A stretch of DNA of 64,000 bases, from the IMG/VR virus record IMGVR_UViG_3300048813_000256; one strand, written 5' to 3'. Numbering within the stretch: position 1 is the first letter of the stretch; each line of letters opens with the position of its first letter. Below, one piece after another: positions 1 through 63,737 of the stretch. A model generated the notes under the pieces. It did not search any database, was not told the DNA's origin, and saw nothing but the letters and a program-made list of their open reading frames with translations. A program made the position numbers and the translations under genes. This stretch comes from an uncultured virus (IMG/VR IMGVR_UViG_3300048813_000256). Its lineage: Duplodnaviria > Heunggongvirae > Uroviricota > Caudoviricetes.

Positions 1-168
1 GCCACGCTGGATATTTTTCCCAACCTGCGCGAAGCGCCGATCCCGGGCACGCCGCTGGTGCTGATCAATCCCACGGGAACCTTCCGTCTCGCGGAAAACC
101 GCCGCGAGGCGGCCGCCATGAAAACCAAGACTTTCAACTTTGCCATGAAGTGCCGCGAGGCGATTTGA
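1..168 (+). CDS. 3' end of a phage tail (distal-tail-like) gene, partial
   Basis: Open frame ATLDIFPNLRE...NPTGTFRL...FAMKCREAI*, directly upstream of tail-tip genes. Confidence 0.5.
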   Translation, partial: ATLDIFPNLREAPIPGTPLVLINPTGTFRLAENRREAAAMKTKTFNFAMKCREAI

Positions 169-178
169 AAACCGCTTC

Positions 179-205
179 TAGCTCTTAGCTATTAGCTCTT
201 AGCTC
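179..205. repeat. Heptamer tandem repeat (TAGCTCT/TAGCTAT) x4
   Basis: tagctct tagctat tagctct tagctc; another heptamer run (tcagttc) at ~13081-13111. Confidence 0.8.
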
Positions 206-258
206 AATCCCAAAACAGAGCGGGCGTCCAGCCCGCGCAGCGCGCCGCAGGAGCCGAT

Positions 259-501
259 ATGCCCTTGCCCACGGCAGTGACCCAGAGCGGTGTTGACGAA
301 AAGTTAGATCGCTGTGCTCAGGCTGCGTATGCCAGCTTTCTCGAAGACATGCGCGAGCTGGCCTCGCCGCTGATTGACCTGCAGCCGGAGTGGGCGCCCG
401 CGCCCGGCAGCGGAAAAAAGACCATGCCCGAAACCATGAAGCGGGTGTGGCGCAATTTGACGGCTGCGGCATTGCGCGAGTCCGGCAAAGGCGATGTCTG
501 A
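259..501 (+). CDS. Hypothetical protein (80 aa)
   Basis: AGGAG RBS; stop overlaps next ATG (TGATG). Confidence 0.6.
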   Translation: MPLPTAVTQSGVDEKLDRCAQAAYASFLEDMRELASPLIDLQPEWAPAPGSGKKTMPETMKRVWRNLTAAALRESGKGDV

Positions 502-1487
502 TGCCCAGAAACATGAGCCCGGCGGTTCTGGCGCAGACTCTTGCCGGCCAATTACAACCCGCGCTCCTGGTCCGCATCGCCTTCCTCACCGAAACGGTTT
601 ACCTGTGGAGTGGGCTGGGTTCGATCACGGCGCCGGGGCCGCCTTATGATCCTGCATCTACGTTTCCTTACGGGAGCGCCTTCACCGGCATCGGCTGGCT
701 GGGAACCATTCGCACTATCCCCGAAGTCACCGACGTGGTGGCATCCAATATCACGCTTGAAATGTCGGGGATCCCCGTCGATCTGGTGACCGACGCGATC
801 AACGCCGTCCGGCAAACCGCGATCGCCACGGTGTGGCTCGGCTTCCTGAGCATGGCGCCGGGGAATCCGCAAATCATCGGAGATCCCGTCCAGGTCTTTC
901 AGGGCGCGCTCGACGTTCCCACCATCACCGAGGGCGCGGCCACCTGCGCCATCGCCATTACCTGCGAAAATCCGCTGATCGATTTGAACCGCGCTCCGGA
1001 ACGGAGATTTACCGACGTCGACCAGCAGGTCGATTATCCCGGCGACACCGGCTTCTTTCAGGTGCAACTGCTGCAGGACTATCTGGTCTTGTGGCCGTCG
1101 CCCTACCAGAGCAATCCCAACCAGACGCAGCGACAGCCGAACTTTCTGACCATTCAGCCGGGGCAGTCCGGCCCCATCGCCATCGCGGTTGGCGAGACGG
1201 TGCAGCTCGTCGCCACCGTGACTTACAGCGATGGCACCACGCAGATAGTAATGGGGCCCGGCGGTCCTTCGGGCTGGGGATGCCAGGTATATTCAAGCGA
1301 TCAGAGCATCGCTCAGCTCGCGAATGGCGGGACGGGATCGGGCGGCGGCATTGTGACGGGATTGAAACAGGGCATGTGCGTGGTGACAGCGCGCTTCGTG
1401 TACGGAGCGTTTTTTGGCAGCGGAGTGACCAAGCCAACTACGCCAGTGACCGCTTCCGTCACCATCATCGTGACGGAAGCGGCCTAG
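501..1487 (+). CDS. Tail-tip assembly protein with C-terminal Ig-like (Big_2-type) domain
   Basis: YLWSGLG, FTGIGWLG, ITCENPL, RFTDVDQQVDYPGDTGF motifs typical of siphophage tail-tip genes; C-terminal VGETVQLVATVTYSDG..SSDQSIA. Confidence 0.75.
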   Translation: MPRNMSPAVLAQTLAGQLQPALLVRIAFLTETVYLWSGLGSITAPGPPYDPASTFPYGSAFTGIGWLGTIRTIPEVTDVVASNITLEMSGIPVDLVTDAINAVRQTAIATVWLGFLSMAPGNPQIIGDPVQVFQGALDVPTITEGAATCAIAITCENPLIDLNRAPERRFTDVDQQVDYPGDTGFFQVQLLQDYLVLWPSPYQSNPNQTQRQPNFLTIQPGQSGPIAIAVGETVQLVATVTYSDGTTQIVMGPGGPSGWGCQVYSSDQSIAQLANGGTGSGGGIVTGLKQGMCVVTARFVYGAFFGSGVTKPTTPVTASVTIIVTEAA

Positions 1488-9877: not shown

Positions 9878-10267
9878 ATGGAGAAAATTATGGATCGCCG
9901 AAAATTCTTTTCCTTCCTTGGTCTGGGCGGCGGCGCCGCCGTTAGCCTGAACGCGCTCAAGGCCATCGCGCCCCAGGCCGAAGCGATCGAGATTCGCCGC
10001 AACCGGCAATACGCGTTCCGCATGCCGCACCACGTTAGCCCGGAATCGCGCCAGGCGATCGCGCAGCGGCTCGCGGCGCTCGGCCTCCACAAACCCATCG
10101 TGCTCGATCCCGGCGTGGATATCTTCGAGCTGGAAGCTTCCGATGCGGCGGAGCACATCGAACTGAGTGTCCCGCCCATGGATGACCGAACTGTCGCTCG
10201 GGCGGTCGCGAGGATAAGCGAACTGCAGAAGCGCGGCGGCCACGGGACCTTTTCCACTTCCTCATGA
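9878..10267 (+). CDS. Small protein with twin-arginine-like N-terminus
   Basis: MDRRKFFSFLG; internal KPIVLDPGVD portal-like snippet. Confidence 0.55.
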   Translation: MEKIMDRRKFFSFLGLGGGAAVSLNALKAIAPQAEAIEIRRNRQYAFRMPHHVSPESRQAIAQRLAALGLHKPIVLDPGVDIFELEASDAAEHIELSVPPMDDRTVARAVARISELQKRGGHGTFSTSS

Positions 10268-10530
10268 ACCGGCGCGGCTTCCTGCGGGCGATGGTGGGCG
10301 GACTGGCCATTGCGGCCGCGCGGACTTATCCCTTTCGGGTATTCAGCTTCCCGACGGAAATCCGGCCTGCGTTTTCTGGCGGCCTCGATCTGGGCAGCAC
10401 CGGCGACTGGACAGCCTACAGCTTGATCTCGATATTGCCGGCGGACGCGGAGTTTCTGGAAAGCCGCTCTTTCATGGCGTCAGAAATCGCGGCTCAGTTC
10501 CGCGTGCCCTCGGAGCGGCTGCTGGCATAA
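10264..10530 (+). CDS. Twin-arginine-like mini-protein with terminase- and portal-like motifs
   Basis: MNRRGFL; GGLDLGSTGDWTA; DAEFLESRSF..SEIAAQFRVP. Confidence 0.6.
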   Translation: MNRRGFLRAMVGGLAIAAARTYPFRVFSFPTEIRPAFSGGLDLGSTGDWTAYSLISILPADAEFLESRSFMASEIAAQFRVPSERLLA

Positions 10531-12741: not shown

Positions 12742-13047
12742 CTAGGCGGCTTTGGGCGGATTGATGGCGTCCTTCACATTCTTTGCCACGCGGAACTTGA
12801 CCACGGTTTTGGCCGCGATCTTGATGGCTTCTCCGCTCTGCGGGTTGCGGCCCATGCGGGCTTTGCGGTGCGCCTTCACCAACCGGCCGATGCCGGGCAC
12901 AATGAAGACGCCGTTCTTCTTCGTCTCTTTGATGGCGAGTGTGGCCAGCTCGTCGAGGAAGGTGGCGACGGTTTTCTTCGCCATGGGTGGATCGAACGAT
13001 TCGGCAAGATGGGCGGTGAGCTGAGTCTTGGTCATGGAACCTGGCAT
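12742..13047 (-). CDS. hup: HU family DNA-binding protein
   Basis: MTKTQL, PGIGRL, RKARMGRNPQSGEAIKIAAKTVVKFR; GGAGG RBS. Confidence 0.93.
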   Translation of the reverse strand: MPGSMTKTQLTAHLAESFDPPMAKKTVATFLDELATLAIKETKKNGVFIVPGIGRLVKAHRKARMGRNPQSGEAIKIAAKTVVKFRVAKNVKDAINPPKAA

Positions 13048-13444
13048 GTTTACTACCTCCGAGGGGCAACGTAGCACAGATCAGTTCTCAGTTGCCAGTT
13101 CTCAGTTCTCAGCAACCCCGCGAATCTCAGGCATTTCCTCCGTGATAGGATCGCGGCCATGGATGAGTTCAAACCAAAAACGCCCAGCCCCGGATGGTTT
13201 GGAGGATCGTGCGGCGGCACGCTGATCTACCCGCCTAGCCACCTGCGGGGCATCAGCCGCGAAGAATTGGAAGCCGACTACCTGGCCACTCTCGCCATGC
13301 TGGTAGAGCGGGCCACTTGGCGGGATAGATGGTGCGCGCTCCGCCGGCCCGGACACTGGCTCAACGTGGCGCGCCGCGAACTGTTCCTCGCTGGGAAGGA
13401 AGGGCTGCGCGCCAAAAAATGAAAGGGCCAGCCGAAGCCGGGCC

Positions 13445-16359: not shown

Positions 16360-16457
16360 AACAGCCATAGAACCGCCAGAGGCCGGTTGCCGGGGCTGTG
16401 CATTCAATCACTTAGGGGTGGGTTTGGCGGGGGCATCTGATTGAGAATCCGATGCAC
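16360..16457. repeat. 98-bp dispersed imperfect repeat, copy A (copy B at 59412-59509)
   Basis: Shared aacagccatagaaccgccagaggc, ggtgggtttggc, gcatc..gatt..aatccgatgcac with identical spacing. Confidence 0.8.
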
Positions 16458-23940: not shown

Positions 23941-24015
23941 GGAGCCTTCATTCAACGGGATAGGATCAGGCCTTCTAAGCCTGAAATGGGTGTTCGAGTC
24001 ATCCAGGCTCTACCA
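23941..24015 (+). tRNA. tRNA-Arg(TCT)
   Basis: caggc-cttctaa-gcctg; cloverleaf with CCA. Confidence 0.88.
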
Positions 24016-24019
24016 AAGT

Positions 24020-24095
24020 GGGAGCGTCGTCCAACGGATCAGGGCACACGGCTACGGACCGTGGAATGCGGGTTCGATTCCTGCCGCTCCTGCCA
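24020..24095 (+). tRNA. tRNA-Arg(ACG)
   Basis: cacgg-ctacgga-ccgtg; CCA. Confidence 0.9.
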
Positions 24096-24108
24096 TTTTT
24101 TGTTTGCA

Positions 24109-24184
24109 GCCCGCGTAGTTCAACTGGAGAGAGCGGTCGCCTCCTAAGCGACAGACCTGAGTTCGAATCTCAGCGCGGGCACCA
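24109..24184 (+). tRNA. tRNA-Arg(CCT)
   Basis: gtcgc-ctcctaa-gcgac; CCA. Confidence 0.92.
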
Positions 24185-24187
24185 TGC

Positions 24188-24263
24188 GGGCGGCTGGTGC
24201 AACGGATGAGCACACGGTTTTCCGAAAGCCGGGATCAGAGTTCGATTCTCTGGCTGCCTGCCA
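24188..24263 (+). tRNA. tRNA-Arg(CCG)
   Basis: cggtt-ttccgaa-agccg; CCA. Confidence 0.85.
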
Positions 24264-24403
24264 TTTTGAGCGGTTCTCCGGGCGTGAGCGAAGCGGGAGC
24301 CCGGACGCGAAATCCTGAGCCGTTCTTTGGCGAAGGATCATTCGCAACCGTGTGAGCATGTTTACATGTTTACATGTTGCTTTTCGATCATGGCCTTTCG
24401 TTC

Positions 24404-24432
24404 TTGACGCGCTGCCTGCGGGACGGTACTCT
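24404..24432 (+). promoter_or_regulatory. Sigma70 promoter for tRNA block 2
   Basis: TTGACG-17 bp-TACTCT; predicted +1 falls on the GTG at 24439. Confidence 0.75.
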
Positions 24433-24438
24433 CGATCT

Positions 24439-24528
24439 GTGAATCTCTTCCAACATAGCGATTGCTTCGGCCACCAGCCGACACCCACTACGCCAGCCGC
24501 GTGGCAGGGGGAAGGCACGTTTATGTGA
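24439..24528 (+). CDS. Leaderless attenuator leader peptide (29 aa)
   Basis: MNLFQHSDCFGHQPTPTTPAAWQGEGTFM*; codons match the downstream tRNAs. Confidence 0.75.
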   Translation: MNLFQHSDCFGHQPTPTTPAAWQGEGTFM

Positions 24529-24587
24529 GGGGATTTCGAGAGCACCAACGCCATCGAAGCCCCTCCAACGAGGGGCTTAAGTTTTTT
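24527..24587 (+). terminator. Attenuator: antiterminator plus intrinsic terminator
   Basis: Terminator aagcccctc-caac-gaggggctt then aagtttttt; alternative pairing of gaggggatttcga (24527-24539) with tcgaagcccctc (24554-24565). Confidence 0.75.
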
Positions 24588-24589
24588 GC

Positions 24590-24663
24590 GGCGCATTCTG
24601 CTAGTGGCAGGCAGCCTGTCTCTCTAACAGGGAACCCGAGTTCGATTCTCGGATGCGCTACCA
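24590..24663 (+). tRNA. tRNA-Glu(CTC)
   Basis: cctgt-ctctcta-acagg; CCA. Confidence 0.88.
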
Positions 24664-24669
24664 GTTTGT

Positions 24670-24743
24670 GGGGTCATCTTCTAGTGGCAGGAAAACTGAC
24701 TTTCGATCAGAGAACCGGAGTTCGATTCTCCGTGGCCCTACCA
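24670..24743 (+). tRNA. tRNA-Glu(TTC)
   Basis: ctga-ctttcga-tcag; CCA. Confidence 0.85.
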
Positions 24744-24756
24744 AGAGAGGTCGGAG

Positions 24757-24936
24757 ATGTTGCAGGCATTCGGGGAAACCGTGAAGCTGACCGACGCTCT
24801 CGAATGCGAGCGTGGCGGGGATCATCGCAAGCTGATCTCGGATGCGAGGGTCGATTACCTGACCCGCGGCATGCTGCCGGATGACAAGTTCGTGCTGTGC
24901 GGCCGCTGCGTGAAGGCGGTGAGTTTGAAAATTTGA
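24757..24936 (+). CDS. 59-aa Cys-containing protein inside the tRNA array
   Basis: GGAG RBS; MLQAFGETVKLTDALECER...LCGRCVKAVSLKI*. Confidence 0.55.
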   Translation: MLQAFGETVKLTDALECERGGDHRKLISDARVDYLTRGMLPDDKFVLCGRCVKAVSLKI

Positions 24937-25011
24937 GGCCGGTTGGCCGAGTGGCTTAGGCGCTGGCCTTTGGATCCAGCTACGGGAGTTCAATTCTCTC
25001 ACCGGCTGCCA
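24937..25011 (+). tRNA. tRNA-Gln(TTG)
   Basis: Loop ctttgga; ggccggt/accggct acceptor; CCA. Confidence 0.82.
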
Positions 25012-25018
25012 ATTTTGT

Positions 25019-25093
25019 TGCGGCTTCGTTTAGTGGGAAAGACCCGGCGCTCTGGACGCCGAGAGCAGAGTTCGAATCTCTGAGCCGTTGCCA
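25019..25093 (+). tRNA. tRNA-Gln(CTG)
   Basis: cggcg-ctctgga-cgccg; CCA. Confidence 0.88.
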
Positions 25094-25114
25094 GTTCTTT
25101 GACAATTGATTTAC

Positions 25115-25192
25115 GGGGATGAGGGCAAAGTGGCCGAGCCGCCTCACTGTCACTGAGGAGTAAAGCGAGTTCGAGTCTCGTCATTCCCGCCA
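25115..25192 (+). tRNA. tRNA-Asp(GTC)
   Basis: cctca-ctgtcac-tgagg; GCCA end. Confidence 0.88.
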
Positions 25193-25193
25193 T

Positions 25194-25270
25194 AGGCCGC
25201 ATGACCCGACTGGAAGGGCGCTAGTCTCCAAAACTAGTTCTAGTGAGTTCGAATCTCACGCGGCCTGCCA
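25194..25270 (+). tRNA. tRNA-Trp(CCA)
   Basis: ctagt-ctccaaa-actag; CCA. Confidence 0.88.
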
Positions 25271-25274
25271 TTTT

Positions 25275-25381
25275 GCGTTCGCTGGAGTCGCAGGGCCGAC
25301 CGGGGAAAGCCCGGAGCAGGAAAGCAGTCTCCCGATCTGCGACGGGGAACGAGGCGTCGAGGACGCCTACAAAGCGAGCGC
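25275..25381 (+). ncRNA. Unidentified multibranch structured RNA
   Basis: Nested stems gcgttcgct/agcgagcgc, gtcgcagg/tctgcgac, ccggg/cccgg, aggcgtc/gacgcct. Confidence 0.5.
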
Positions 25382-25385
25382 GCGA

Positions 25386-25460
25386 GCGGGCGTGGTATAG
25401 CGGCTGGTGCCTTGGGCCTCCAACCCAATGACGCGAGTTCAACTCTCGCCGTCCGCTCCA
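25386..25460 (+). tRNA. tRNA-Gly(TCC)
   Basis: ttggg-cctccaa-cccaa (C33); TCCA end. Confidence 0.85.
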
Positions 25461-25468
25461 AATTTTGT

Positions 25469-25543
25469 GCTGGGATCGTCTAGCGGCCAGGATATTGCGT
25501 TGCCAACGCGATGACACGGGTTCGAGTCCCGTTCCCCGCACCA
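25469..25543 (+). tRNA. tRNA-Gly(GCC)
   Basis: ttgcg-ttgccaa-cgcga; CCA. Confidence 0.87.
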
Positions 25544-25549
25544 GGTTTC

Positions 25550-25623
25550 GGTCGGTTGTCCGAGCGGCCAGGTAGATGCCTGCAAAGCATCTGACGGGGG
25601 TTCAACTCCCTCACCGACCTCCA
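25550..25623 (+). tRNA. tRNA-Cys(GCA)
   Basis: gatgc-ctgcaaa-gcatc; TCCA end. Confidence 0.9.
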
Positions 25624-25624
25624 G

Positions 25625-25699
25625 GCCAGCGTAGCTCAACAGGCAGAGCGCCAGATTCGTACCCTGGTGATCGGCGTTCGATCCGTCGCGCTGGCTCCA
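25625..25699 (+). tRNA. tRNA-Thr(CGT)
   Basis: Loop ttcgtac; gccagcg/cgctggc acceptor; CCA. Confidence 0.87.
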
Positions 25700-25704
25700 T
25701 GTTT

Positions 25705-25780
25705 GCCGGTGAAGCACATGAGGATGTGCGCTCCCTTGGTAAGGGAGAGGCAGTCAGTTCGAATCTGATCGCTGGCTCCA
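25705..25780 (+). tRNA. tRNA-Thr(GGT)
   Basis: ctccc-ttggtaa-gggag; CCA. Confidence 0.88.
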
Positions 25781-25793
25781 GTTTTTTAGAAGT

Positions 25794-25869
25794 GCCGGTG
25801 TAGCTCAAAGGCAGAGCGGTCGATCTGTACTCGACAGGTTGCGGGTTCAACTCCACGCCGCCGGCTCCA
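25794..25869 (+). tRNA. tRNA-Thr(TGT)
   Basis: gtcga-tctgtac-tcgac (C33); CCA. Confidence 0.82.
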
Positions 25870-25883
25870 AGTTTAGTTTTTGA

Positions 25884-25958
25884 GTGGCCCAACCCAAACG
25901 GTGCGGGGCGTGTCTGTGGAACACGTTTTAGAGGGTTCGACTCCCTCGGGTCACCCCA
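25884..25958 (+). tRNA. tRNA-His(GTG)
   Basis: cgtgt-ctgtgga-acacg; C73 then CCA. Confidence 0.87.
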
Positions 25959-25961
25959 AGT

Positions 25962-26036
25962 GGGCGAGTGGTGTAAGTGGGAGCATAGACGGTTTGCACC
26001 CGTCAGGCGCGGCTTCGAGTGCCGCCTTGTCCACCA
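25962..26036 (+). tRNA. tRNA-Ala(TGC)
   Basis: gacgg-tttgcac-ccgtc; G3-U70 pair; ACCA end. Confidence 0.87.
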
Positions 26037-26103
26037 GATCTTGCAAGGGCTATCGCGCTAGCTTGCCGGGAAACGCGCGTGATGTAACCCGGCTCCAAAA
26101 TGT

Positions 26104-26179
26104 GGGAAGCTGGCGTAGCCGGTGCGCGCGCTGGCCTGAAAAGCCAGAGGATTCCGTTCGACTCGGAGGCTTCTCACCA
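26104..26179 (+). tRNA. tRNA-Phe(GAA)
   Basis: ctggc-ctgaaaa-gccag; CCA. Confidence 0.9.
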
Positions 26180-26180
26180 T

Positions 26181-26263
26181 CGGGGTGTCGGCTAGCGGCG
26201 AGGCCACCTGCCTTGGGAGCAGGTACACAAACACCAGAGGTTCGAGTCCTCTCACCCCGACCA
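26181..26263 (+). tRNA. tRNA-Pro(TGG), enlarged variable loop
   Basis: cctgc-cttggga-gcagg; cggggtg/caccccg acceptor; CCA. Confidence 0.87.
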
Positions 26264-26348
26264 TTTTTTGACGATGCGCTAATCGCCTGCGGATTGACCG
26301 GAAAATGAGCGATCTTCGGGCCACGCACTCCCGTGACCGCTTTTGCGA

Positions 26349-26377
26349 TTGACACCGCGGGGCGCTTCCGCTAGGTT
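26349..26377 (+). promoter_or_regulatory. Sigma70 promoter for tRNA block 3
   Basis: TTGACA-17 bp-TAGGTT, +1 near the tRNA-Met 5' end. Confidence 0.7.
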
Positions 26378-26382
26378 TGAGA

Positions 26383-26459
26383 GGCGCGGTAGTAGCGTAG
26401 GACAATACGGGAGGCTCATAACCTCCAGACGGTGCGTGCAAATCCACCCCGCGCAACCA
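26383..26459 (+). tRNA. tRNA-Met(CAT), initiator-like
   Basis: ggagg-ctcataa-cctcc; 1:72 mismatch; atypical T loop; ACCA end. Confidence 0.75.
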
Positions 26460-26468
26460 AAAACTTCG

Positions 26469-26528
26469 ATGTTCGCTCTACACTCATCCCGATTGTCGTT
26501 ACGACTCAGCATCCTGCTGGGTTATTAG
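26469..26528 (+). CDS. Leu/Ser/Tyr-rich leader peptide (19 aa)
   Basis: MFALHSSRLSLRLSILLGY* just before the Leu/Ser/Ser/Tyr/Leu tRNAs. Confidence 0.6.
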   Translation: MFALHSSRLSLRLSILLGY

Positions 26529-26542
26529 TCCCCACACAATTC

Positions 26543-26626
26543 AGGCCCATGGCGGAACGGCAGACGCAGCCGCCTCAAGAGCGGTCGCCTTCGGGCATGA
26601 GAGTTCAAATCTCTCTGGGCCTACCA
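26543..26626 (+). tRNA. tRNA-Leu(CAA)
   Basis: Loop ctcaaga; long variable arm; CCA. Confidence 0.9.
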
Positions 26627-26655
26627 AAGTTTCTTTGATCTTTGACAATTCAAAC

Positions 26656-26743
26656 GGAGAGTTGGGCGAGTGGCTTATGCCGCGATCCTGCTAAGATCGA
26701 GCGCCCAAGGGCGCCGCGAGTTCGAATCTCGCACTCTCCGCCA
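26656..26743 (+). tRNA. tRNA-Ser(GCT)
   Basis: cgatc-ctgctaa-gatcg; long variable arm; GCCA end. Confidence 0.92.
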
Positions 26744-26744
26744 C

Positions 26745-26834
26745 GGAGAAGTGGGCGAGTCCGGCTTATGCCAGCAGTCCCGAAAACTGCCACACCTGCG
26801 GGTGTCGTGAGTTCAAATCTCACCTTCTCCGCCA
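26745..26834 (+). tRNA. tRNA-Ser(CGA)
   Basis: gcagt-cccgaaa-actgc; long variable arm; GCCA end. Confidence 0.9.
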
Positions 26835-26838
26835 TTTT

Positions 26839-26929
26839 GCACAGATGCGTGAGCCCGGCTGAAACGGACCGGCTGTAACCCGGTTTCCCCGAGTGGGACG
26901 CGGAGGTTCAAATCCTTCTCTGTGCACCA
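26839..26929 (+). tRNA. tRNA-Tyr(GTA)
   Basis: accgg-ctgtaac-ccggt; long variable arm; ACCA end. Confidence 0.88.
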
Positions 26930-26931
26930 GT

Positions 26932-27007
26932 GGGCCCATGGTGTAATCGGCAAACACGGCTGCCTTAGGAGCAGCTTTTGAGGGTTCGAATCCTTCTGGG
27001 CCTACCA
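26932..27007 (+). tRNA. tRNA-Leu(TAG), short variable loop
   Basis: gctgc-cttagga-gcagc; variable region only tttt; CCA. Confidence 0.85.
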
Positions 27008-34590: not shown

Positions 34591-35508
34591 TCATGCGGTC
34601 AACCCTTCATAGGTCAGCCGCTTGCCGACTACGGCCAGAACAAAGCTATCCAGCCGCTCAAGAGTGTGGTACTTCACGTTGCCGACGTTCAGCCGGAAGG
34701 TGAACTCGTCAACGTACTTGGCAAGATGCTTCTTGCTTATTTGGTGATAGACGCCGTACACGCCGCGTTTCAGGACTGCCCAAACGCTCTCGATTCCGTT
34801 CGTGCTCGCCTGACCCAGCCGGTACTCGCCCGCCATGTGATTGACGCTCTGGTGACGGAAGAAAAGACCATCAAGGCCGATGTATCCGGGTGCCTCATCC
34901 GTGAAGATCGTAGAGCCGACTTCCACATTGGCGTGGATGGCGGATTGCAAACTGACTTGGTCGGTAGCTTCCAGCGGCATTGCAATAGTGCGTCCGCCGC
35001 GCTCCCTGAGTCCTACAACGGCAGTCTTGCCCACGGAGCCACGCCCAGCCTTGAGCTTTTTGTGCTCGTGCTTGTTGCGCTCTTTCCCGCCGATAAAACA
35101 TTCGTCAATTTCGACCATGCCGCGAAGTTTGTCCAGCTTCCCGCCGCACGCCTCCCGAAGCCGATGCAGAACGAACCACGCCGACTTCTGCGTAATGCCG
35201 ATTTCCTTGGCAAGCTGCATCGAACTGATGCCTTTTCGCGCTGTGACGAGCAGGTACATGGCATAGAGCCACTTGTGCAGAGGAATGTGGCTGCGCTCGA
35301 AGATCGTGCCTGTACGGATGGTGAAATCCAATTGGCAGGCATTGCAGCGATAGAAGCCGCCCTTGCGAGTTGTGATGCGTTCAGTGGCTTTGCAGGTCGG
35401 GCAAGTGACGCCGTTTTCCCAGAGACGGGATTCCAGATAGAGCCGTGCGGACTCCGCGTCGGGAAACATCTCGAAAAGCTGGAATGTGCTGATCGTGCTC
35501 TTACTCAT
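34591..35508 (-). CDS. IS1595-family DDE transposase
   Basis: Zn ribbon CPTC/CNAC, GTIFERSHIPL, VEIDEC, FTDE, STNGIESVW, YVDEFTFRLN. Confidence 0.95.
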   Translation of the reverse strand: MSKSTISTFQLFEMFPDAESARLYLESRLWENGVTCPTCKATERITTRKGGFYRCNACQLDFTIRTGTIFERSHIPLHKWLYAMYLLVTARKGISSMQLAKEIGITQKSAWFVLHRLREACGGKLDKLRGMVEIDECFIGGKERNKHEHKKLKAGRGSVGKTAVVGLRERGGRTIAMPLEATDQVSLQSAIHANVEVGSTIFTDEAPGYIGLDGLFFRHQSVNHMAGEYRLGQASTNGIESVWAVLKRGVYGVYHQISKKHLAKYVDEFTFRLNVGNVKYHTLERLDSFVLAVVGKRLTYEGLTA

Positions 35509-35512
35509 TGCG

Positions 35513-35683
35513 TTACCCCTCGCATCCCATCTGGTAATAGCCGCCACAGTCCTGGGAGCAGAAATCTATCGTTTGCGTGCGAACCTCTTGCTTTTGGCGA
35601 GCGGGATTCCATGCTCGGTCGATTATCTTTCGCGGTACAGGTGTCTCGATTGGCTTCCCGCAGTAAGGGCATTTGGCTGTCAT
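35513..35683 (-). CDS. YdaE-like Zn-finger passenger (56 aa)
   Basis: MTAKCPYCGKPI...FCSQDC..YQM; GGAGG RBS. Confidence 0.55.
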   Translation of the reverse strand: MTAKCPYCGKPIETPVPRKIIDRAWNPARQKQEVRTQTIDFCSQDCGGYYQMGCEG

Positions 35684-42033: not shown

Positions 42034-42285
42034 TCATGCCGCCTTGACCTTCCTCCGCAGATAGTCCACCGCGTCCTGCACGGTGACGATTCTTTCCGCG
42101 TCCTCGTCGCCGATGATGATCTCGAATTTTTCCTCGAACTCCATCACCAGCTCCACGGTGTCGAGCGAGTCCGCACCCAGGTCGTCCACGAATTTTGCGG
42201 TTGGCGTTACGTCTGATTCGTCAACCCCGAGTTGCTGCACGATGATCTCGCGCACTTTGTCGAAGAGTGTGTCTTTGCTGCTCAT
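42034..42285 (-). CDS. acpP: Acyl carrier protein
   Basis: [48 protein letters not shown]. Confidence 0.95.
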
Positions 42286-47916: not shown

Positions 47917-48843
47917 ATGAGCAAATCTACAATCAGCACCTTTCAACTTTTCGAGATGTTCCCGACCCCTGAGTCGGCACGGCTCTATCTCGAATCGCGG
48001 ATTTGGCCCGATGGTCCGTTCTGCCCTGAATGTAAGAACCGTGAGCGCATCGGCAAGCAACCCAAGGTTGGCTTCTATCGCTGCAATGCCTGTTCTCTCG
48101 ATTTCACGATCCGTACAGGGACGATCTTCGAGCGCAGCCATATTCCGTTGCACAAATGGCTCTATGCCATGTACCTGCTCGTAACCGCACGCAAGGGCAT
48201 CTCCAGCTTGCAATTGGGGAAAGAGATCGGTGTTACCCAGAAGTCGGCATGGTTCATGCTCCAACGTCTCCGCGAGGCGTGCGGCTCTGGCGATGACCTT
48301 GACAAGTTGCGCGGCATCGTCGAAGTAGACGAATGCTTCATCGGTGGAAAAGAGCGCAACAAGCACGAACACAAAAAACTCAAGGCCGGACGTGGAAGCG
48401 TCGGGAAGACGGCTGTCGTAGGACTCAGGGAGCGCGGCGGACGCACCGTAGCGATGCCGATTGAGGCTACCGACATGGCCGCGCTGCAATCGGCTGTCCA
48501 TGCCAACGTCGAAGTAGGTTCCACGATCTTTACGGACGAAGCGACCGGATACGTCGGCCTTGACGGTCTGTTCTTTCGGCACGAAGCGATCAATCACACG
48601 GCTGGAATCTACTCCGAGAACGGCGTTAGCACGAACAGCATTGAATCCGTTTGGGCCGTACTCAAGCGCGGAGTGTATGGCGTTTACCATCAGGTTTCCA
48701 AGAAGCATCTGCACCGCTACGTGGATGAGTTTACGTTCCGCCTGAACGTCGGCAATGTGAGCCGTCACACTCTGGAGCGGCTGGATTCGTTCGTAGTCGC
48801 GGTAGTCGGAAAGCATCTCACCTACAAGGAACTGACAGCATGA
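47917..48843 (+). CDS. IS1595-family DDE transposase
   Basis: Same motifs as 34591-35508; closely related but not identical. Confidence 0.95.
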   Translation: MSKSTISTFQLFEMFPTPESARLYLESRIWPDGPFCPECKNRERIGKQPKVGFYRCNACSLDFTIRTGTIFERSHIPLHKWLYAMYLLVTARKGISSLQLGKEIGVTQKSAWFMLQRLREACGSGDDLDKLRGIVEVDECFIGGKERNKHEHKKLKAGRGSVGKTAVVGLRERGGRTVAMPIEATDMAALQSAVHANVEVGSTIFTDEATGYVGLDGLFFRHEAINHTAGIYSENGVSTNSIESVWAVLKRGVYGVYHQVSKKHLHRYVDEFTFRLNVGNVSRHTLERLDSFVVAVVGKHLTYKELTA

Positions 48844-57994: not shown

Positions 57995-59411
57995 ATTTGC
58001 GGAGGCGCGCGATGGAGAATGGAAAGTTCGTCCTGGAGCTGACTCACTCCCAGCAGATGGCGCTGATCGACCTGATCTCTGGCTCTCTGCGCTGCCGATG
58101 CGACGGCCGCGTGGAAGAGTACGTCGACTGTTCCCAGCAACCCTCCGTGGTTACCACGCCGGGCCAACTGCTGCGGCTGGTTTCGGAGGCGAAACCCGTG
58201 CCAAACGGGGAGAATGCCCGCCAAACGGCATAAGTGGCGAGGCTGGTTCGCCACGAATTCCGGGGCAGCACTTTCGTAACCTGTTATACTCGGCGAAAAA
58301 CAGGAAGAATCTGGGTCGCGACCCGGTTCAACGCATACGTTCTTCCTGTGGCTTCATCCTTCCTGTTGCTCCTGTCGCTGAAAGCTGAAAGCTAGGTAAG
58401 AGCCGGTCGCCTCCCGAATGGGCGGCGTCGACGCCCCGGCAACCCAAGGCGCATCTCTGGCGCTACCCGTCCGTCCACGGGCATCTCCGCTTCAACTCCT
58501 GAAAAATCCTATGAATCCCCATCAATGCAATCGTGATTGCCGAAGGCACGGGTGCGCCCACCTGCGCCTGGGAAAGCGGGAGCGTCTCGCCCTCGCCCTA
58601 GCGACCGCGGCCACCGCTCCGGCGGTTACCGGCGTGCCCCTGTTCTACATCGATCAGAACCAGAGCCTTCCCACGCCTTATTCGGTGACCCAGGCGCAGG
58701 CCGATGCCATGAAAGCGGCGGGACGCGGGCGCTACATCAACCGCTGCAAGGCGTTCCAGCTCTGCGAGCTGGCGCCGGTGTCGCCGCGGTTCACTCCCAG
58801 CCAGACTCCGGACAGCGCGGCCAGCATTTCGCTGGCGGAGATGGAAGCGAACGTGGGCATCGCGGGCGATCTCAAAGACTGGCGCGAGGAAGCGCCGGCG
58901 CCGCGGCATTTGGTGCAGCGCGCGCAACAGAAAGTGAAAGCCATCGGACGTCGCGAGAAAGACACGTTCGACGACAAGGCCACGCTGGCCTTCGGCGGGC
59001 ACGCTTATGCGGACCGCTGGAAAGCATTTTCTTCGCGCGGATCTTATCTGGCTCCTGCCACCAGCGATGCGCCGCCGGACGCTCGTCGAGATAGCGTGGC
59101 GAATCCTCGCCCTGGCGATGACAGCCGGCCCTCAGCGGTGTGTGAGTAAGATGTGTCTCCCAAGAAGGCTAACAGCAGCTCCGGGCCGCCGGCGGGACGT
59201 TTCCGAACTCCGCCGGGCTGCACGTTCATGGGATGGTGTATGGCCGCGGTCGACGTCGCGTTTCTCAGAGCTACGCCAGGGGGAAGCGATCTCTCCAGTG
59301 AAATGCTGCTGATGCTGGCGCTAGTGGTCTACAACGATTACGGACTGTTCCCGACGCCGGCGCCGCCGGCGAAGCGGTTGGGTTCCGAACTGGGCACGAT
59401 TCCGGGGGCGA

Positions 59412-59509
59412 AACAGCCATAGAACCGCCAGAGGCGGGTTTCCCCGCCTGTGCGCTCAATCAAATAGCGGTGGGTTTGGCTAGAGCATCGGATTCGAAAT
59501 CCGATGCAC
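59412..59509. repeat. 98-bp dispersed imperfect repeat, copy B
   Basis: Colinear with 16360-16457. Confidence 0.8.
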
Positions 59510-59534
59510 GTACGACTCAAAAAGCAGGTAAGCC

Positions 59535-59876
59535 ATGGATTTGGATCCCAAACCGGTTCCCGAGAGCACGAACCCCGACCGCAAGAATCAGTATCGGGAC
59601 TCTTCTCCCGCGGTGCTGCGCGACCAGCTCAACGAGAACTGGCGGCAACTTCGAATTCTCAGCGCGGCCGTTGGCGACCGCGACAGGATCATTGCCTCGC
59701 AGCATTTGTCGATCAGCGAGCGCGATACCACCATCAAGCTGCTGAACAGCCGGCTGAGCTACAGCAAGATCCGCGTGGCGCTGCTCTACGCGCTGGTGGG
59801 CGGCGCCGCGGCCAAAGGCGCGGAAGTCGGTATCCTGGCGCTCGGGCATTTTCTGGCGAAGGCGCTTTTGCAATGA
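59535..59876 (+). CDS. Coiled-coil protein with C-terminal TM segment
   Basis: Hydrophobic C-terminus; coupled to ORF 59873-60166. Confidence 0.55.
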   Translation: MDLDPKPVPESTNPDRKNQYRDSSPAVLRDQLNENWRQLRILSAAVGDRDRIIASQHLSISERDTTIKLLNSRLSYSKIRVALLYALVGGAAAKGAEVGILALGHFLAKALLQ

Positions 59877-60184
59877 GAGGCATTCCCCATCGCCGGGCGT
59901 TGCCGGCCGGCTGGCGCAAGAATGTTGTCTTCCACGTCATCCTGCTCGACGGCACGCGGTTTCGGCATCCGATGCGGACGAAGCCGGGAAGGTTCCTCAC
60001 TCCCAACGACGTGGAGAAGCTGCTGGAATCGGAAGCCAAAACCGTGGAGAGGTTTTTTCCCGGCCAAGAGTTCCGCCTGGTCCCGCTGCGCGGTGGTAAC
60101 TTCAACCTGGTGGAAGTGAAGCCCAATGCTGAGCCTGCCCCCGAAACCGTCGCCGCGGCCGGATAGAATTCCGGTTCGCCGCTG

Positions 60185-61131
60185 GCCACGCTGGATATTT
60201 TTCCCAACCTGCGCGAAGCGCCGATCCCGGGCACGCCGCTGGTGCTGATCAATCCCACGGGAACCTTCCGTCTCGCGGAAAACCGCCGCGAGGCGGCCGC
60301 CATGAAAACCAAGACTTTCAACTTTGCCATGAAGTGCCGCGAGGCGATTTGAAAACCGCTTCTAGCTCTTAGCTATTAGCTCTTAGCTCAATCCCAAAAC
60401 AGAGCGGGCGTCCAGCCCGCGCAGCGCGCCGCAGGAGCCGATATGCCCTTGCCCACGGCAGTGACCCAGAGCGGTGTTGACGAAAAGTTAGATCGCTGTG
60501 CTCAGGCTGCGTATGCCAGCTTTCTCGAAGACATGCGCGAGCTGGCCTCGCCGCTGATTGACCTGCAGCCGGAGTGGGCGCCCGCGCCCGGCAGCGGAAA
60601 AAAGACCATGCCCGAAACCATGAAGCGGGTGTGGCGCAATTTGACGGCTGCGGCATTGCGCGAGTCCGGCAAAGGCGATGTCTGATGCCCAGAAACATGA
60701 GCCCGGCGGTTCTGGCGCAGACTCTTGCCGGCCAATTACAACCCGCGCTCCTGGTCCGCATCGCCTTCCTCACCGAAACGGTTTACCTGTGGAGTGGGCT
60801 GGGTTCGATCACGGCGCCGGGGCCGCCTTATGATCCTGCATCTACGTTTCCTTACGGGAGCGCCTTCACCGGCATCGGCTGGCTGGGAACCATTCGCACT
60901 ATCCCCGAAGTCACCGACGTGGTGGCATCCAATATCACGCTTGAAATGTCGGGGATCCCCGTCGATCTGGTGACCGACGCGATCAACGCCGTCCGGCAAA
61001 CCGCGATCGCCACGGTATGGCTCGGCTTCCTCAGCATGGCGCCGGGGAATCCGCAAATCATCGGAGATCCTGTCCAGGTCTTTCAGGGCGCGCTCGACGT
61101 TCCCACCATCACCGAGGGCGCGGCCACCTGC
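60185..61131 (+). repeat. Near-exact duplicate of bases 1-947 (truncated tail genes)
   Basis: Offset 60184; differences seen only at 61017, 61032 and 61071. Confidence 0.95.
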
Positions 61132-61284
61132 TACGTCGATCTGCTGACTGATTCGGGGCTGGTGGGGAGAGCCGATCTACGCGGCCTACGTGGAATTTGG
61201 CGGGGCAGCGGGAGGCGGAAAGCGCACGGGCACTAACAACGGTGTGGTCGAAACCCTTTTCGGATATCCGGTCTTCTATCAGCG

Positions 61285-61911
61285 ATGACAGCTCCTGCAC
61301 ATTACGTGGAATTTGGCGGCGGTCGCGGCGGAAAGAGCGCGGGCGGCGCTCTCGGAACCGTGCTCTCGCTGGCTCCTCTGGGAAGCGACGACTACGCCCA
61401 CTTCCAGTTGACCAAACTGGAACGGCGCGATCACCGGCAGCCGGACGATGTGACCTGTCTCGACAGCCCGCACACGGCCATGTTGCTGCGGGCCAGCCAG
61501 CCGCGGTACAGAATCGAAGGATTGCTGAACGGTCCGCGCGCCTGGGCGCTGGCGCATTGCATCGACCTGGACTTGCCTTGCAGCTACAAGATCACGATGC
61601 TGGACGGCGTGGCGTTGACTGGAACCTGTTACGTGACGCGGGCCAGCGTCGATCCCCGCTCTGGCACCTTCGACCTTGAATTGCTGGTCACGAAGGAAGT
61701 GCTGCCCATCACCGAAGTAAGCCGGCTGTCGATCGATGGGAAGGAAATTCCCAAGGGCAGCTTTGCCGTGATTCATCCACGCCGGCGGCTGCTGCCCGCT
61801 GCCCCTCAGCCCGCGATTGCTACGGTCGAGGATCTTCCGACTGTGGAGGATTTTGGTACGGTCGAGGATCTTCCGACTGCGGCCGATTTTGCTCTGAGCT
61901 TTGAAGCGTAG
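61285..61911 (+). CDS. Tail-tube-like mosaic protein
   Basis: HYVEFGGGRGGKS; ALGTVLSL, DDVTCLDSP, YKITMLDG...YVT; C-terminal TVEDLP repeats. Confidence 0.55.
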   Translation: MTAPAHYVEFGGGRGGKSAGGALGTVLSLAPLGSDDYAHFQLTKLERRDHRQPDDVTCLDSPHTAMLLRASQPRYRIEGLLNGPRAWALAHCIDLDLPCSYKITMLDGVALTGTCYVTRASVDPRSGTFDLELLVTKEVLPITEVSRLSIDGKEIPKGSFAVIHPRRRLLPAAPQPAIATVEDLPTVEDFGTVEDLPTAADFALSFEA

Positions 61912-63317
61912 GCATTTCCAGTCCGTGTTTCTGCGCGAAGCTTTCGGCGTGACGCCGGCATGCGGCCCGCGCCATGCGTCTGACGATCTTGCTGGGACCG
62001 CCTCCTCGCTTCCACAGGTACTCGAACGAAGTGAGGTATTCGGCGTTCGCTTCGCAATTCTTCGACGGGCAACCCTGCGGGGGACGGTCCTGCGGCCACG
62101 CTTCGATGGTGTAGCTCTCCGCCATTTCAGGCTCTCGCCTTCCGTCGTTTGCGCTTCCGCGCGTCGTACTCGCAGCGCGGGCAGCCAACGGTTGGCAGCT
62201 TGCCGAAGGACGCACCGTCGCGCACTGCGTTGCATTCCGGGGAATGCTTCGGCGGACGCCCGCCCAGGAGCCCATTGCGGGCGCTGGCCGGCTTGGGGAC
62301 TCCGGCGCCGCGCGCGCCTACGCACGCGGGACAGACCAGCTTGACGTGTTCGTGACCTGGGACGGTACAGGTCGGCGCGCGTCTTCGTTTCGTTGCAGGC
62401 ATGATCTCCGATCCTATCACTACCATGCCGGCAGCGCCGCGATTTCGCGGTCGGTGCGGGCAATGATTTTGGCGCATCGTTCCTGATTCGGTTTGGTGGT
62501 GGGCGGGCTGCTCAGGCAAAGGGAATAGAGTGCGGCGTCGGTGTCCCCGTGCAGGTGGCGGACGATTTCGATGTGGTGGTAGACAATCTCGGCTTCGTCG
62601 GCGGCAAGCTTCCGCGCGGCCCAGACCGGCATGTCTTCGGCCTTGGGTTGGGGCGCGGTCGCGCAGCCAGCCGTGGTTAGCACGGCCAGCAGCGCGATTG
62701 AGGCGGTTATCCGGCGATTCATCAGTTCCTCCCGGTGCCGGCGATCAGCTCGCCGTGCTGGTTGTACATCTCCCGCTCGTCCATGCGTCCGTTCAAGAAC
62801 GTGGTGACGATGACGGCGGCAGCTCCCGGTTCTTCGCTGGGAAAAGTCAGCACGCGGACCATGACGTCGACCTGGTTGTAGGCTTCCATCAGCGGCCGCC
62901 TTTCAGGCTGGGATTCTCCGCGCACACGGCGCGATCGAATCGAGCGTTGCCAACGGCGTTGCGGGTGCGCTCCTCAGTCTGGCCGGCGAGCTCGGGCTGC
63001 TGCATCGCGCCTTTGGCGATGCGGGCGGCTTGGCGGGTCATGGCGTCGGCGTCTCCGTCGTCGCACAGCGCGGCGATCTGGCGCAGGGCGGCGTCGATGG
63101 CTCCGCGCTCCGAGAGTCCGGCGATCATCTTGCGGTAATCGCTGATGCTGATTTCTACGGTGCCTTCGTTGTCAATGAGGCGCTGAATCGCCTTCTCGTC
63201 GGCGGCGATGGCGCGGGCTAGGGTTGGGGCGTTGCGTCGGCGCTGGATGGCGCGGGCGCTGGGCGCTGGGTTGGTTCGCTTGGTTGCTTTCATCGGTGCG
63301 TGTGGCTCCCTTCGGTT

Positions 63318-63373
63318 TTTAGCTGCTCAGGATCGCGCCAACCTTGCGGCGGGCGCGATGCTCAGAAGCTAGG
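63318..63373. repeat. 56-bp intergenic hairpin repeat, copy 1
   Basis: Identical to 63682-63737. Confidence 0.9.
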
Positions 63374-63681: not shown

Positions 63682-63737
63682 TTTAGCTGCTCAGGATCGC
63701 GCCAACCTTGCGGCGGGCGCGATGCTCAGAAGCTAGG
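63682..63737. repeat. 56-bp intergenic hairpin repeat, copy 2
   Basis: tttagctgctcaggatcgcgccaaccttgcggcgggcgcgatgctcagaagctagg. Confidence 0.9.

What the first reader, a model, noticed from the sequence alone, without database searches (positions are those of the whole stretch)
61148..61911. Second motif-collage locus: gp10 + Walker A + capsid + tail-tube snippets
Seen: frame 61148-61288 reads YAAYVEFGGAAGGGKRTG...TLFGYPV and is ATGA-coupled to an ORF starting HYVEFGGGRGGKS with tail-tube-like segments. From family knowledge YA.YVEFG is an HK97-gp10 motif, GGAAGGGK/GGRGGKS are TerL Walker A motifs, and TL.GYPV is an HK97 capsid motif. The YVEFG-to-Walker A junction occurs twice in diverged form, which suggests selection rather than debris (inference). 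The first ORF has no clear start and lies just after the duplication junction.
Basis: partly seen in the sequence, partly recalled or inferred. Interest (0 to 1): 0.7.

Follow-up and report, generated by a model that had tools for sequence, protein, structure and literature searches.

The report
Phage genes stitched from structural motifs
A peat-bog phage carries two adjacent small genes spliced together from the signature stretches of several unrelated virion-building proteins, an arrangement that may act as a decoy for bacterial immune sensors or may be leftover recombination debris.

Summary
Frame 61148-61288 joins an HK97-gp10 8-mer (YAAYVEFG; all 44 IMG/VR matches look like gp10, 41 confirmed) to a large-terminase Walker A 9-mer (FGGAAGGGK; 118 of 119 matches are TerL). 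The two overlap at a shared FG, a join seen in none of the natural proteins. The third motif (TLFGYPV) is capsid-compatible but not diagnostic (7 of 119 hits). The coupled 208-aa ORF has a tail-tube fold at residues about 20-140 (Foldseek E 2e-5; VIA Z 11.4). Its three known relatives lack the gp10/Walker A piece; two carry a portal-like insert elsewhere. So it is a tail-tube scaffold with exchangeable motif inserts. Corrections: the two junction copies come from one event plus duplication (8 of 8 shared codons). The first ORF probably starts at ATC 61175. The upstream 947-bp duplication is a recent insertion of the phage's own tail DNA, absent from one strain contig. Best reading (0.4): selected mimics of conserved morphogenesis features that blunt host sensors. 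Rivals: debris on a tail-tube paralogue (0.33), poison subunit against other phages (0.17). Function is untested. I found no paper describing such genes.

The parts
61175..61288 (+). 37-codon micro-ORF (open frame from 61148); probable non-ATG start at ATC 61175; gp10 motif + TerL Walker A + probable capsid motif
   Evidence: GGGGAG lies 5 nt before the ATC, the same spacing as before ATG 60443. Codon log-odds 8.6 in this frame against -2.6 and -21.2 in the other two. The start is inferred.
61162..61169 (+). Ribosome-binding-site-like GGGGAGAG
   Evidence: Read from sequence; function inferred
61178..61200 (+). HK97-gp10/Neck1 signature YAAYVEFG
   Evidence: 41 of 44 matches linked to confirmed gp10 with the motif masked
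61196..61222 (+). TerL Walker A signature FGGAAGGGK, overlapping the gp10 motif at FG; followed by R, where 116 of 119 natural matches have S or T
61253..61273 (+). TLFGYPV, compatible with the HK97-type major capsid motif; not diagnostic
   Evidence: 7 of 119 GTDB hits are capsids. A capsid profile that included five of them scored it above 300 of 300 shuffles; a profile without them did not find it.
61285..61911 (+). 208-aa ORF: tail-tube-fold scaffold with exchangeable inserts; start overlaps the stop of the micro-ORF (ATGA)
   Evidence: three relatives at 50-54% identity; codon log-odds 33 against -84 and -85
61294..61341 (+). Lineage-specific in-frame insert (residues 4-19): second gp10/Walker A join, AHYVEFG + GGRGGKS
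   Evidence: Absent from P0002-P0004. gp10 profile: 0 of 300 shuffles reach its score; TerL profile: 10 of 300 (both profiles built from motif-selected proteins). 80% nt identity to 61187-61231.
61345..61704 (+). Tail-tube (gpV/Hcp-like) fold, residues about 21-140
   Evidence: AF2 block pLDDT mostly 69-86 with a dip to 45-52 in the hairpin loop; Foldseek E 2e-5 to monocin tube, 2.5e-4 to lambda gpV; VIA Z 11.4, rmsd 4.2, 114 aligned to 8qhs; Atlas PF16461
61705..61911 (+). Low-confidence C-terminal part, conserved in relatives at both ends; three 18-nt tandem units at 61817-61888; origin unassigned
   Evidence: (D9). Only hit: phrog_23818, unknown function, E 0.014.
60185..61131 (+). 947-bp insertion copied from the phage's own tail module (end of the gene upstream of window 1, an 80-aa gene, and the first ~149 codons of the phrog_2048 tail gene)
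   Evidence: 3 differences from window 1-947. L001 spans the right junction at 100%. An X9 contig spans the left junction. One X22 contig (depth 2.95, 38 letters on the short side) joins 60181 to 61128. CTGC is shared at the right junction.
60685..61236 (+). Truncated copy of the tail gene, running off into another frame over the micro-ORF's 5' half
   Evidence: phrog_2048, E 1.8e-17, residues 3-145
1..947 (+). Donor copy of the insertion, inside the intact tail module
59535..59876 (+). 113-aa ORF whose relatives lie about 1.5-2 kb upstream of a terminase-like gene in two other phages; marks this as a pre-terminase position
   Evidence: tblastn E 4e-11 and 5e-10, gene order. The terminase there was read from its Walker A and length, not profile-scanned.
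10264..10530 (+). Sister collage gene elsewhere in this genome: twin-arginine-like leader + TerL-like + portal pieces
   Evidence: phrog_12 portal E 2.1e-4, phrog_9 TerL E 0.12; family

Best explanation
A two-gene accessory unit in a temperate peat siphophage, built by in-frame splicing of pieces of morphogenesis genes and kept because its products imitate conserved features of those proteins. Origin (partly shown): stretches of structural-gene DNA are copied into this position (the 947-bp insertion is a recent case) and joined or trimmed at microhomologies. The gp10/TerL join overlaps at the FG codons both motifs share, which keeps the frame. The join was then duplicated onto the N-terminus of an orphan tail-tube paralogue, whose relatives picked up a portal motif instead. 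Function (inferred, untested): the products cannot package DNA or build a head. They present terminase, neck, capsid, portal and tail-tube features and most likely bind host pattern-recognition sensors of phage structural proteins without triggering them, buying time for the real proteins.
For: Shown: diagnostic motifs of two unrelated families overlap in frame at a shared dipeptide, a join absent from 44 gp10 and 119 TerL matches. The same scaffold carries a different signature insert in P0002/P0003 (12 of 16 residues identical to a portal; the only annotated one of four weak hits among 50,697 phage records, E 7). 3 of 4 listed strain differences in the ORF are synonymous against 25% expected (P about 0.05, my arithmetic). 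The sister family in this genome shows the same habit: 8 of 24 variable tails match reference proteins at 26 bits or more, against 16 of 960 shuffles and 2 of 95 other-frame translations; 6 of the 8 match two capsid clusters that make up 4.3% of the reference. Known biology: Avs families sense terminase, portal, capsid, head-tail connector and tail tube (PMC13581612), and Upx is modelled to bind unfolded terminase ATPase strands including beta-1 (PMC13601566).
Against: No binding, expression or phenotype data. Avs sensors are described as recognising core folds over extended interfaces, so 8-10-residue pieces should bind poorly, and an intact tail-tube fold could trigger an Avs16-type sensor instead of blocking it. 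gp10/Neck1 is not named in the list of sensed proteins I read. The micro-ORF has no ATG, its Walker A ends in KR, and it is overlapped by the run-off frame of the inserted tail gene. P0003 and P0006 have in-frame deletions in predicted core strands and P0004 lacks the portal-like stretch. The strain differences rest on one contig of depth 4.3, and 1 of its 5 differences was not listed. Only three relatives were found, with no DNA context. The join was not found elsewhere in IMG/VR.
Confidence: 0.4

Rival explanations
1. Recombination debris: this position accepts stray structural-gene DNA, and the micro-ORF and the N-terminal insert are neutral leftovers riding on a tail-tube paralogue that is itself drifting or has a function unrelated to the motifs. 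We notice signature motifs because only those are recognisable.
For: A 947-bp, 99.7%-identical, three-gene piece with no motif bias sits at the same spot and varies between strains. No ATG, broken Walker A, one origin for both joins. Deletions in core strands of relatives. The finding was picked for its recognisable motifs.
Against: Most of the 37 codons (about 20) are motif, from two or three donor families, all sense and in frame. A ribosome-binding-site-like element and ATGA coupling flank it. A different motif sits in frame in relatives. The sister family is enriched for in-frame capsid pieces about 20-fold over shuffles and 15-fold over other frames.
Confidence: 0.33
2. Poison subunits for phage-phage competition: the tail-tube paralogue co-assembles into the tails of superinfecting or co-infecting phages and stalls them, with the motifs acting as assembly-interface handles; expressed from the prophage or late in infection.
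For: Whole tail-tube fold outside the tail module. The phage has two integrases. Prophage-encoded blockers of tail assembly exist (Tab, PMC10884400; Tai, PMC11364771; abstracts).
Against: Walker A and the gp10 motif are not obvious tail-assembly handles. The genes read in the same direction as a pre-terminase gene, where they would meet the phage's own tail. No counter-defence partner was identified.
Confidence: 0.17
3. Deliberate trigger: the products activate host sensors (abortive infection) at a time that suits the phage, for example to defend the lysogen against other phages.
For: An intact tail-tube fold is the kind of target Avs16 binds. A terminase-ATPase-like paralogue of T4, vs.8, was toxic with EcAvs2.
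Against: Late-operon position and orientation would kill the phage's own infection. Short motifs are unlikely to activate fold sensors.
Confidence: 0.06
4. An ordinary but divergent structural tail-tube gene, with the motifs arising by chance or from an assembly error.
For: The phage's real tail-tube gene is not in the window and could not be seen. The IMG/VR record G001 is a circle closed at the repeat, so this region does trouble assemblers.
Against: The gene lies about 55 kb from the tail tip genes, next to an oppositely oriented block. The motifs are family-diagnostic. L001 carries both ORFs at 100%, and contigs of runs X4, X5, X9 and X22 cover all or part of the region.
Confidence: 0.04

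Closest known systems
Siphophage tail tube proteins (lambda gpV, monocin MttP, Hcp; Pfam PF16461)
   Same: Residues about 20-140 adopt this fold, with the DVT-x-LD hairpin motif (the motif label is recalled).
   Different: Outside the tail module, no sequence-level family hit, and decorated with terminase/gp10 or portal motifs.
HK97-gp10/Neck1 (PF04883, phrog_5) and large terminase (PF03237, phrog_2)
   Same: Exact 8- and 9-residue signatures.
   Different: Only the signatures are present; no domain, no Walker B, no nuclease, and K is followed by R in copy 1.
Orphan paralogues of structural domains, such as T4 vs.8 (terminase-ATPase-like; PMC13601566, passages seen)
   Same: A stand-alone copy of a sensed structural fold in an accessory position.
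   Different: vs.8 is one whole domain and activated EcAvs2; here pieces of several families are spliced together.
Tab and Tai tail-assembly blockers (PMC10884400, PMC11364771; abstracts seen)
   Same: Small accessory genes of prophages that act on virion assembly; a possible functional analogue.
   Different: No sequence test linked them to this ORF; the abstracts do not describe them as built from structural-gene pieces.
Phage genome mosaicism by recombination between diverged or microhomologous sequences (PMC2327257, search listing only) and moron genes (recalled)
   Same: In-frame joins at a few shared bases; extra genes inserted at operon edges.
   Different: Classic mosaics swap genes or domains between homologous positions; here motif-sized pieces of non-homologous genes are concatenated.
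Twin-arginine-leader mini-proteins with capsid/portal/terminase pieces
   Same: Same building principle and same donor families; two such leaders occur in this genome at 9878 and 10264.
   Different: This locus has no twin-arginine leader, so its products would stay in the cytoplasm; it uses a tail-tube scaffold and includes gp10.

Membership tests
Tail tube protein (gpV/Hcp fold) | Tail-tube beta-sandwich with one helix | tested here: met
   Foldseek E 2e-5; VIA Z 11.4, rmsd 4.2, 114 aligned; Atlas PF16461
Tail tube protein (gpV/Hcp fold) | Sequence match to a tail-tube family profile | tested here: not met
   No PHROGs or Pfam tail-tube hit at E 10; no PDB sequence hit
Tail tube protein (gpV/Hcp fold) | Gene lies in the tail operon between terminator and chaperone genes | tested here: not met
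   Neighbours are the micro-ORF and an opposite-strand block
Tail tube protein (gpV/Hcp fold) | Forms hexameric rings and is part of the virion | not tested
   No complex prediction was obtained; virion content needs experiment
HK97-gp10/Neck1 | YxxYVE[FY]G(T) motif | tested here: met
   the T that follows in 40 of 44 is replaced by the Walker A
HK97-gp10/Neck1 | Whole ~80-residue PF04883 domain | tested here: not met
   No Pfam or PHROGs hit
Large terminase | Walker A GxxxxGK[ST] | tested here: inconclusive
   Copy 2 fits (GGGRGGKS); copy 1 has the exact 9-mer but R after K, seen in 0 of 119
Large terminase | Full ATPase and nuclease domains, about 400 aa or more after the P-loop | tested here: not met
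   ORFs of 37 and 208 aa, the second with another fold
HK97-type major capsid protein | TL[LF]G[YI]PV motif about 80-100 aa from the C-terminus | tested here: inconclusive
   Motif string present; 7 of 119 hits are capsids
HK97-type major capsid protein | HK97 fold, whole PF05065 domain | tested here: not met
   37-aa ORF, no profile hit
Twin-arginine-leader fragment proteins | N-terminal RRxF[LIF] leader | tested here: not met
   Regex finds it at 9878 and 10264 (and once in an unrelated ORF at 49566), not at 61148-61911; the empty-site reading shows none
Anti-defence decoy of Avs/Upx sensors | Binds a sensor and blocks its activation | not testable with these tools
   Needs co-expression or binding assays; host and its sensors are unknown
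Tab/Tai assembly blockers | Blocks tail assembly of incoming phages | not testable with these tools
   Needs plating assays and electron microscopy

The most novel reading that the evidence does not exclude
Phages keep a combinatorial library of epitope-collage genes. They splice the least mutable motifs of terminase, portal, capsid, neck and tail proteins onto carriers (an export-like leader, or here a spare tail-tube fold and a bare micro-ORF) to jam the bacterial receptors that target exactly those unchangeable features. This locus would be the cytoplasmic, leaderless form, caught next to a fresh insertion of raw material.
Probability: 0.35. Interest if true: 0.9.

Novelty: categorically new. 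Interest (0 to 1): 0.64.

Why it matters
Bacterial sensors target the parts of phage structural proteins that cannot easily mutate, and how phages cope with that is open. Genes built from those very parts would be a general answer, testable at once with existing sensor-trigger toxicity screens, and their inserts would map which features are watched, including ones not yet tied to a sensor (gp10/Neck1). If they are only debris, the locus still shows gene birth by in-frame splicing of non-homologous genes, and warns that motif-based annotation can mislabel such ORFs as terminase, portal or capsid. The novelty label refers to the architecture, which fits no family I tested and no paper I found; the function is not shown.

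Tried and rejected
Relatives with DNA context: none in IMG/VR, GTDB, 5 single records, or 401 genomes of the order of an Acidobacteriaceae MAG (8 chance-level hits, best E 0.004, 13-18% identity). The metagenome scan gave only L001, the same sequence. The 97-aa upstream ORF had no relative in IMG/VR. The join elsewhere: 0 hits with one pattern, 3 hits with a looser one, all out of frame or unrelated; both patterns fixed the first Tyr codon to TAC. The 46-aa frame found nothing among longer proteins, annotated phages or PDB sequences. PHROGs on sub-segments gave no structural hit. On the twin-arginine family it gave two weak capsid hits among 21 proteins (E 0.015, 0.49), a weak small-terminase hit (E 0.24) and unrelated ones, and none among 5 more. 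My guess that residues 141-165 or the ATVEDL repeats come from a head-tail adaptor was not supported for the window protein (P0002 reached 4 of 300 shuffles). The Atlas gave nothing usable for the C-terminal part of P0003. No promoter-like site in 59000-62600. RNA run X9 has contigs over the region, but contigs cannot show expression. No complex prediction was obtained, so ring formation is open. No reverse transcriptase or annealing recombinase among 84 scanned window ORFs; the other half of the genome is not held. The phage is not an intact 60-kb circle: G001 matches only up to 61131 and is best read as closed at the repeat. Literature searches that found no description of such genes: (open-access library only; supplements not consulted, and they could list such ORFs). 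bioRxiv 10.1101/2023.04.06.535777 (12 passages) concerns host-side decoys and was set aside.

Full report
Setting. The window is about half of a temperate, tailed phage. It holds tail hub and tip genes at 0.5-5.7 kb, an endolysin, two integrases, a helicase and a replication initiator and 24 tRNAs. Runs holding the stretch are mostly peat metagenomes. The two proteins of interest occur on a 117,946-bp contig that I could not read. The host is unknown.

What is there. Frame 61148-61288 lies between two TGA codons and has no ATG. It reads YAAYVEFG-GAAGGGK-RTG...ETLFGYPVFYQR, and its stop overlaps the ATG of a 208-aa ORF at 61285-61911. GGGGAG lies 5 nt before ATC 61175, the same spacing as before ATG 60443, and that ATC directly precedes the first motif residue. 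I therefore read a 37-codon micro-ORF; this start is inferred. Codon use favours this frame (8.6 against -2.6 and -21.2), which may simply be inherited from the donor genes.

Library profiles miss them because they are too short, so I asked which natural proteins carry them. The YAAYVEFG pattern matched 44 places in IMG/VR, all in 93-210-aa ORFs that look like gp10. Four of five tested hit PF04883 and the fifth phrog_5, and 41 of 44 link to these with the motif masked. In these terminases the residue before F is L in 93 and never E, and K is followed by S or T in 116. No gp10 match has GGK nearby and no terminase match has Y[VI]E before F. The window sequence is thus a join of two families that overlap at the FG they share, so a crossover there stays in frame. 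The third motif is weaker. T[LF]FGYPV[FY] gave 119 hits in GTDB, of which 7 are HK97-type capsids. A profile containing five of those scored the window peptide above all 300 shuffles, but a capsid profile without them did not find it.

The 208-aa ORF. Two searches found only three relatives, at 50-54% identity. AlphaFold2 on the four-row alignment models residues about 21-140 with block pLDDT mostly 69-86. The model matches tail tubes: monocin tube E 2e-5, lambda gpV E 2.5e-4, phage tail proteins in BFVD, Z 11.4 to 8qhs and to Hcp. The Atlas model agrees. The relatives lack residues 4-19, the second gp10/Walker A join. P0002 and P0003 instead carry an insert after the fold that matches a portal at 12 of 16 residues. 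That portal was the only annotated one of four weak hits among 50,697 phage records (E 7), and a portal profile that included it was reached by 0 and 1 of 300 shuffles. So the scaffold is shared and the inserts differ. Against a tightly kept fold, P0003 and P0006 have in-frame deletions of 9 and 6 residues in predicted strands.

The repeated join. The two copies are 80% identical over 46 nt and share all 8 codons of YVEFG and GGK, which has P about 0.002 under the phage's codon use. They are one event and a duplication, not two events. They differ in the middle (GAAG against GGR), and both stay in frame. Two DNA patterns found the join nowhere else in IMG/VR.

The duplication. 60185-61131 copies window 1-947 with 3 differences. 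L001 shows the donor's true upstream gene and spans the right junction at 100%; an X9 contig spans the left junction. One contig of soil run X22 joins 60181 to 61128, an empty site (depth 2.95, 38 letters on the short side). X22 also covers the start of the 208-aa ORF, so the collage is probably older than the insertion. CTGC is shared by donor and target at the right end. The insertion brought no start and removed none that I can see. It shows that structural-gene DNA is copied into this spot without regard to motifs. Of the four X22 differences listed in the ORF, three are synonymous, against 25% expected; this is one low-depth contig. Relatives of the 113-aa gene at 59535 lie 1.5-2 kb before a terminase-like gene in two phages, so the unit sits at the likely head of a late operon.

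A wider habit. The gene at 10264 joins a twin-arginine-like leader to portal (E 2.1e-4) and terminase-like (E 0.12) pieces. Its leader defines a family: 5 other proteins and 25 IMG/VR loci with unrelated tails. I tested 24 tails: 19 of the 25 loci (four duplicates and two with a different leader dropped) and 5 of 6 proteins (one near-duplicate dropped). Against 297 reference proteins from fetched loci, 8 of 24 scored 26 bits or more, against 16 of 960 shuffles and 2 of 95 other-frame translations. Six hits are to two capsid clusters (P22-type coat; and a cluster in which one of three tested members hits phrog_14242), at 25-56% identity, one to the terminase Walker A (partly circular) and one to an unverified cluster. 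Sixteen tails found no such match, and PHROGs gave only weak support. After this test I saw that earlier AI notes of this scan list 25 such leader-plus-fragment findings (8 shown). They are unchecked and are not evidence. None matched this locus by place or sequence.

How it most likely works. Shown: motif identity for gp10 and terminase, the overlap at FG, the tail-tube fold, exchangeable inserts, and a recent copy-in event. Inferred: joining at microhomologies, translation from the ATC, and selection on the motifs. My preferred function (0.4) is mimicry that blunts host sensors. PMC13581612 (abstract and 10 passages) lists Avs sensors for capsid, portal, head-tail connector, tail tube and others, but says they read core folds over extended interfaces, which argues against short motifs working well. 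PMC13601566 (abstract and 11 passages) models Upx binding unfolded terminase strands including beta-1, which leaves room for linear decoys, and reports that the T4 terminase-like paralogue vs.8 activates Avs2. That Avs3 contacts terminase active-site residues is recalled, not read. Rivals are neutral debris on a tail-tube paralogue (0.33), a poison subunit against other phages in the manner of Tab or Tai (0.17; abstracts only), a deliberate trigger (0.06) and an ordinary tail gene or artefact (0.04).

Comparison and novelty. The ORFs work like, at most, pieces of gp10, terminase and capsid; they fail membership of all three. The 208-aa protein has the tail-tube fold but not the family's sequence profile or gene position. 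Seven literature searches found no description of such genes, nor did 12 passages of a 2026 review of phage countermeasures (PMC13728456); subscription papers and supplements were not covered. Mosaicism by recombination is known (PMC2327257, search listing only). Concatenating signature motifs of non-homologous structural genes is not a kind I could name, so I rate the architecture as categorically new, with about a one-in-three chance that it is only debris.

Verdict. A real feature, correctly seen, with one argument overstated. Interest 0.64; the boldest reading has probability 0.35 and would deserve 0.9.

Noticed in passing
window 9878-10267 and 10264-10530: Two adjacent twin-arginine-like leader genes; the second carries portal and terminase-like pieces and belongs to a family with a constant ~33-aa leader and capsid-derived variable tails.
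   Followed up: partly
L016:10001-10309 and 10744-11121: Two tandem leader genes identical for about 60 codons and then entirely different; a tail swap apparently caught soon after duplication.
   Followed up: no
L029:10001-10294: Leader gene just downstream of the capsid gene, with a terminase Walker A (YGGARGGGK) followed by a stretch that by eye resembles its own capsid protein.
   Followed up: partly
G001 (60,309 bp record): IMG/VR lists this as a complete genome with terminal repeats, but it matches the query only up to 61131; it is probably a circle closed at the 947-bp repeat, about half the phage.
   Followed up: partly
L001:1-2876: Joins the donor's upstream tail gene to the copy-2 alleles and the collage locus; either an assembly chimera at the repeat or a recombinant that has lost the 60 kb between the repeats. 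An X4 contig shows a matching left part.
   Followed up: partly
window 63318-63373 and 63682-63737: Two identical 56-nt partly palindromic repeats flank a 96-aa gene; an X9 contig skips the 364 bp between them, as if a cassette were lost or gained.
   Followed up: no
window 23941-27007: Cluster of 24 tRNA genes, with an RtcB tRNA ligase gene at 19053-20327.
   Followed up: no
window 16360-16457 and 59412-59509: 98-nt repeat at 83% identity ending in a palindrome, once near the first integrase region and once before the 59535 gene; possible regulatory site.
   Followed up: no
window 34594-35547 (-) and 47917-48843 (+): Two inverted, 74-86% identical ORFs that look like IS1595-type transposases (label recalled; PHROGs says unknown function), with a shared 25-nt end repeat.
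   Followed up: no
window 59873-60166: 97-aa ORF of no family containing LTPNDV..LLE, which resembles the portal motif LTPNEAR (E 3.4 only); possibly a third collage.
   Followed up: partly
window 59002-59119: One X22 contig skips 116 bp here, inside the ORF ending at 59149.
   Followed up: no
window 42037-42285 (-) and 12742-13077 (-): Phage-encoded acyl carrier protein and a DNA-binding protein that looks HU-like (HU label recalled).
   Followed up: no
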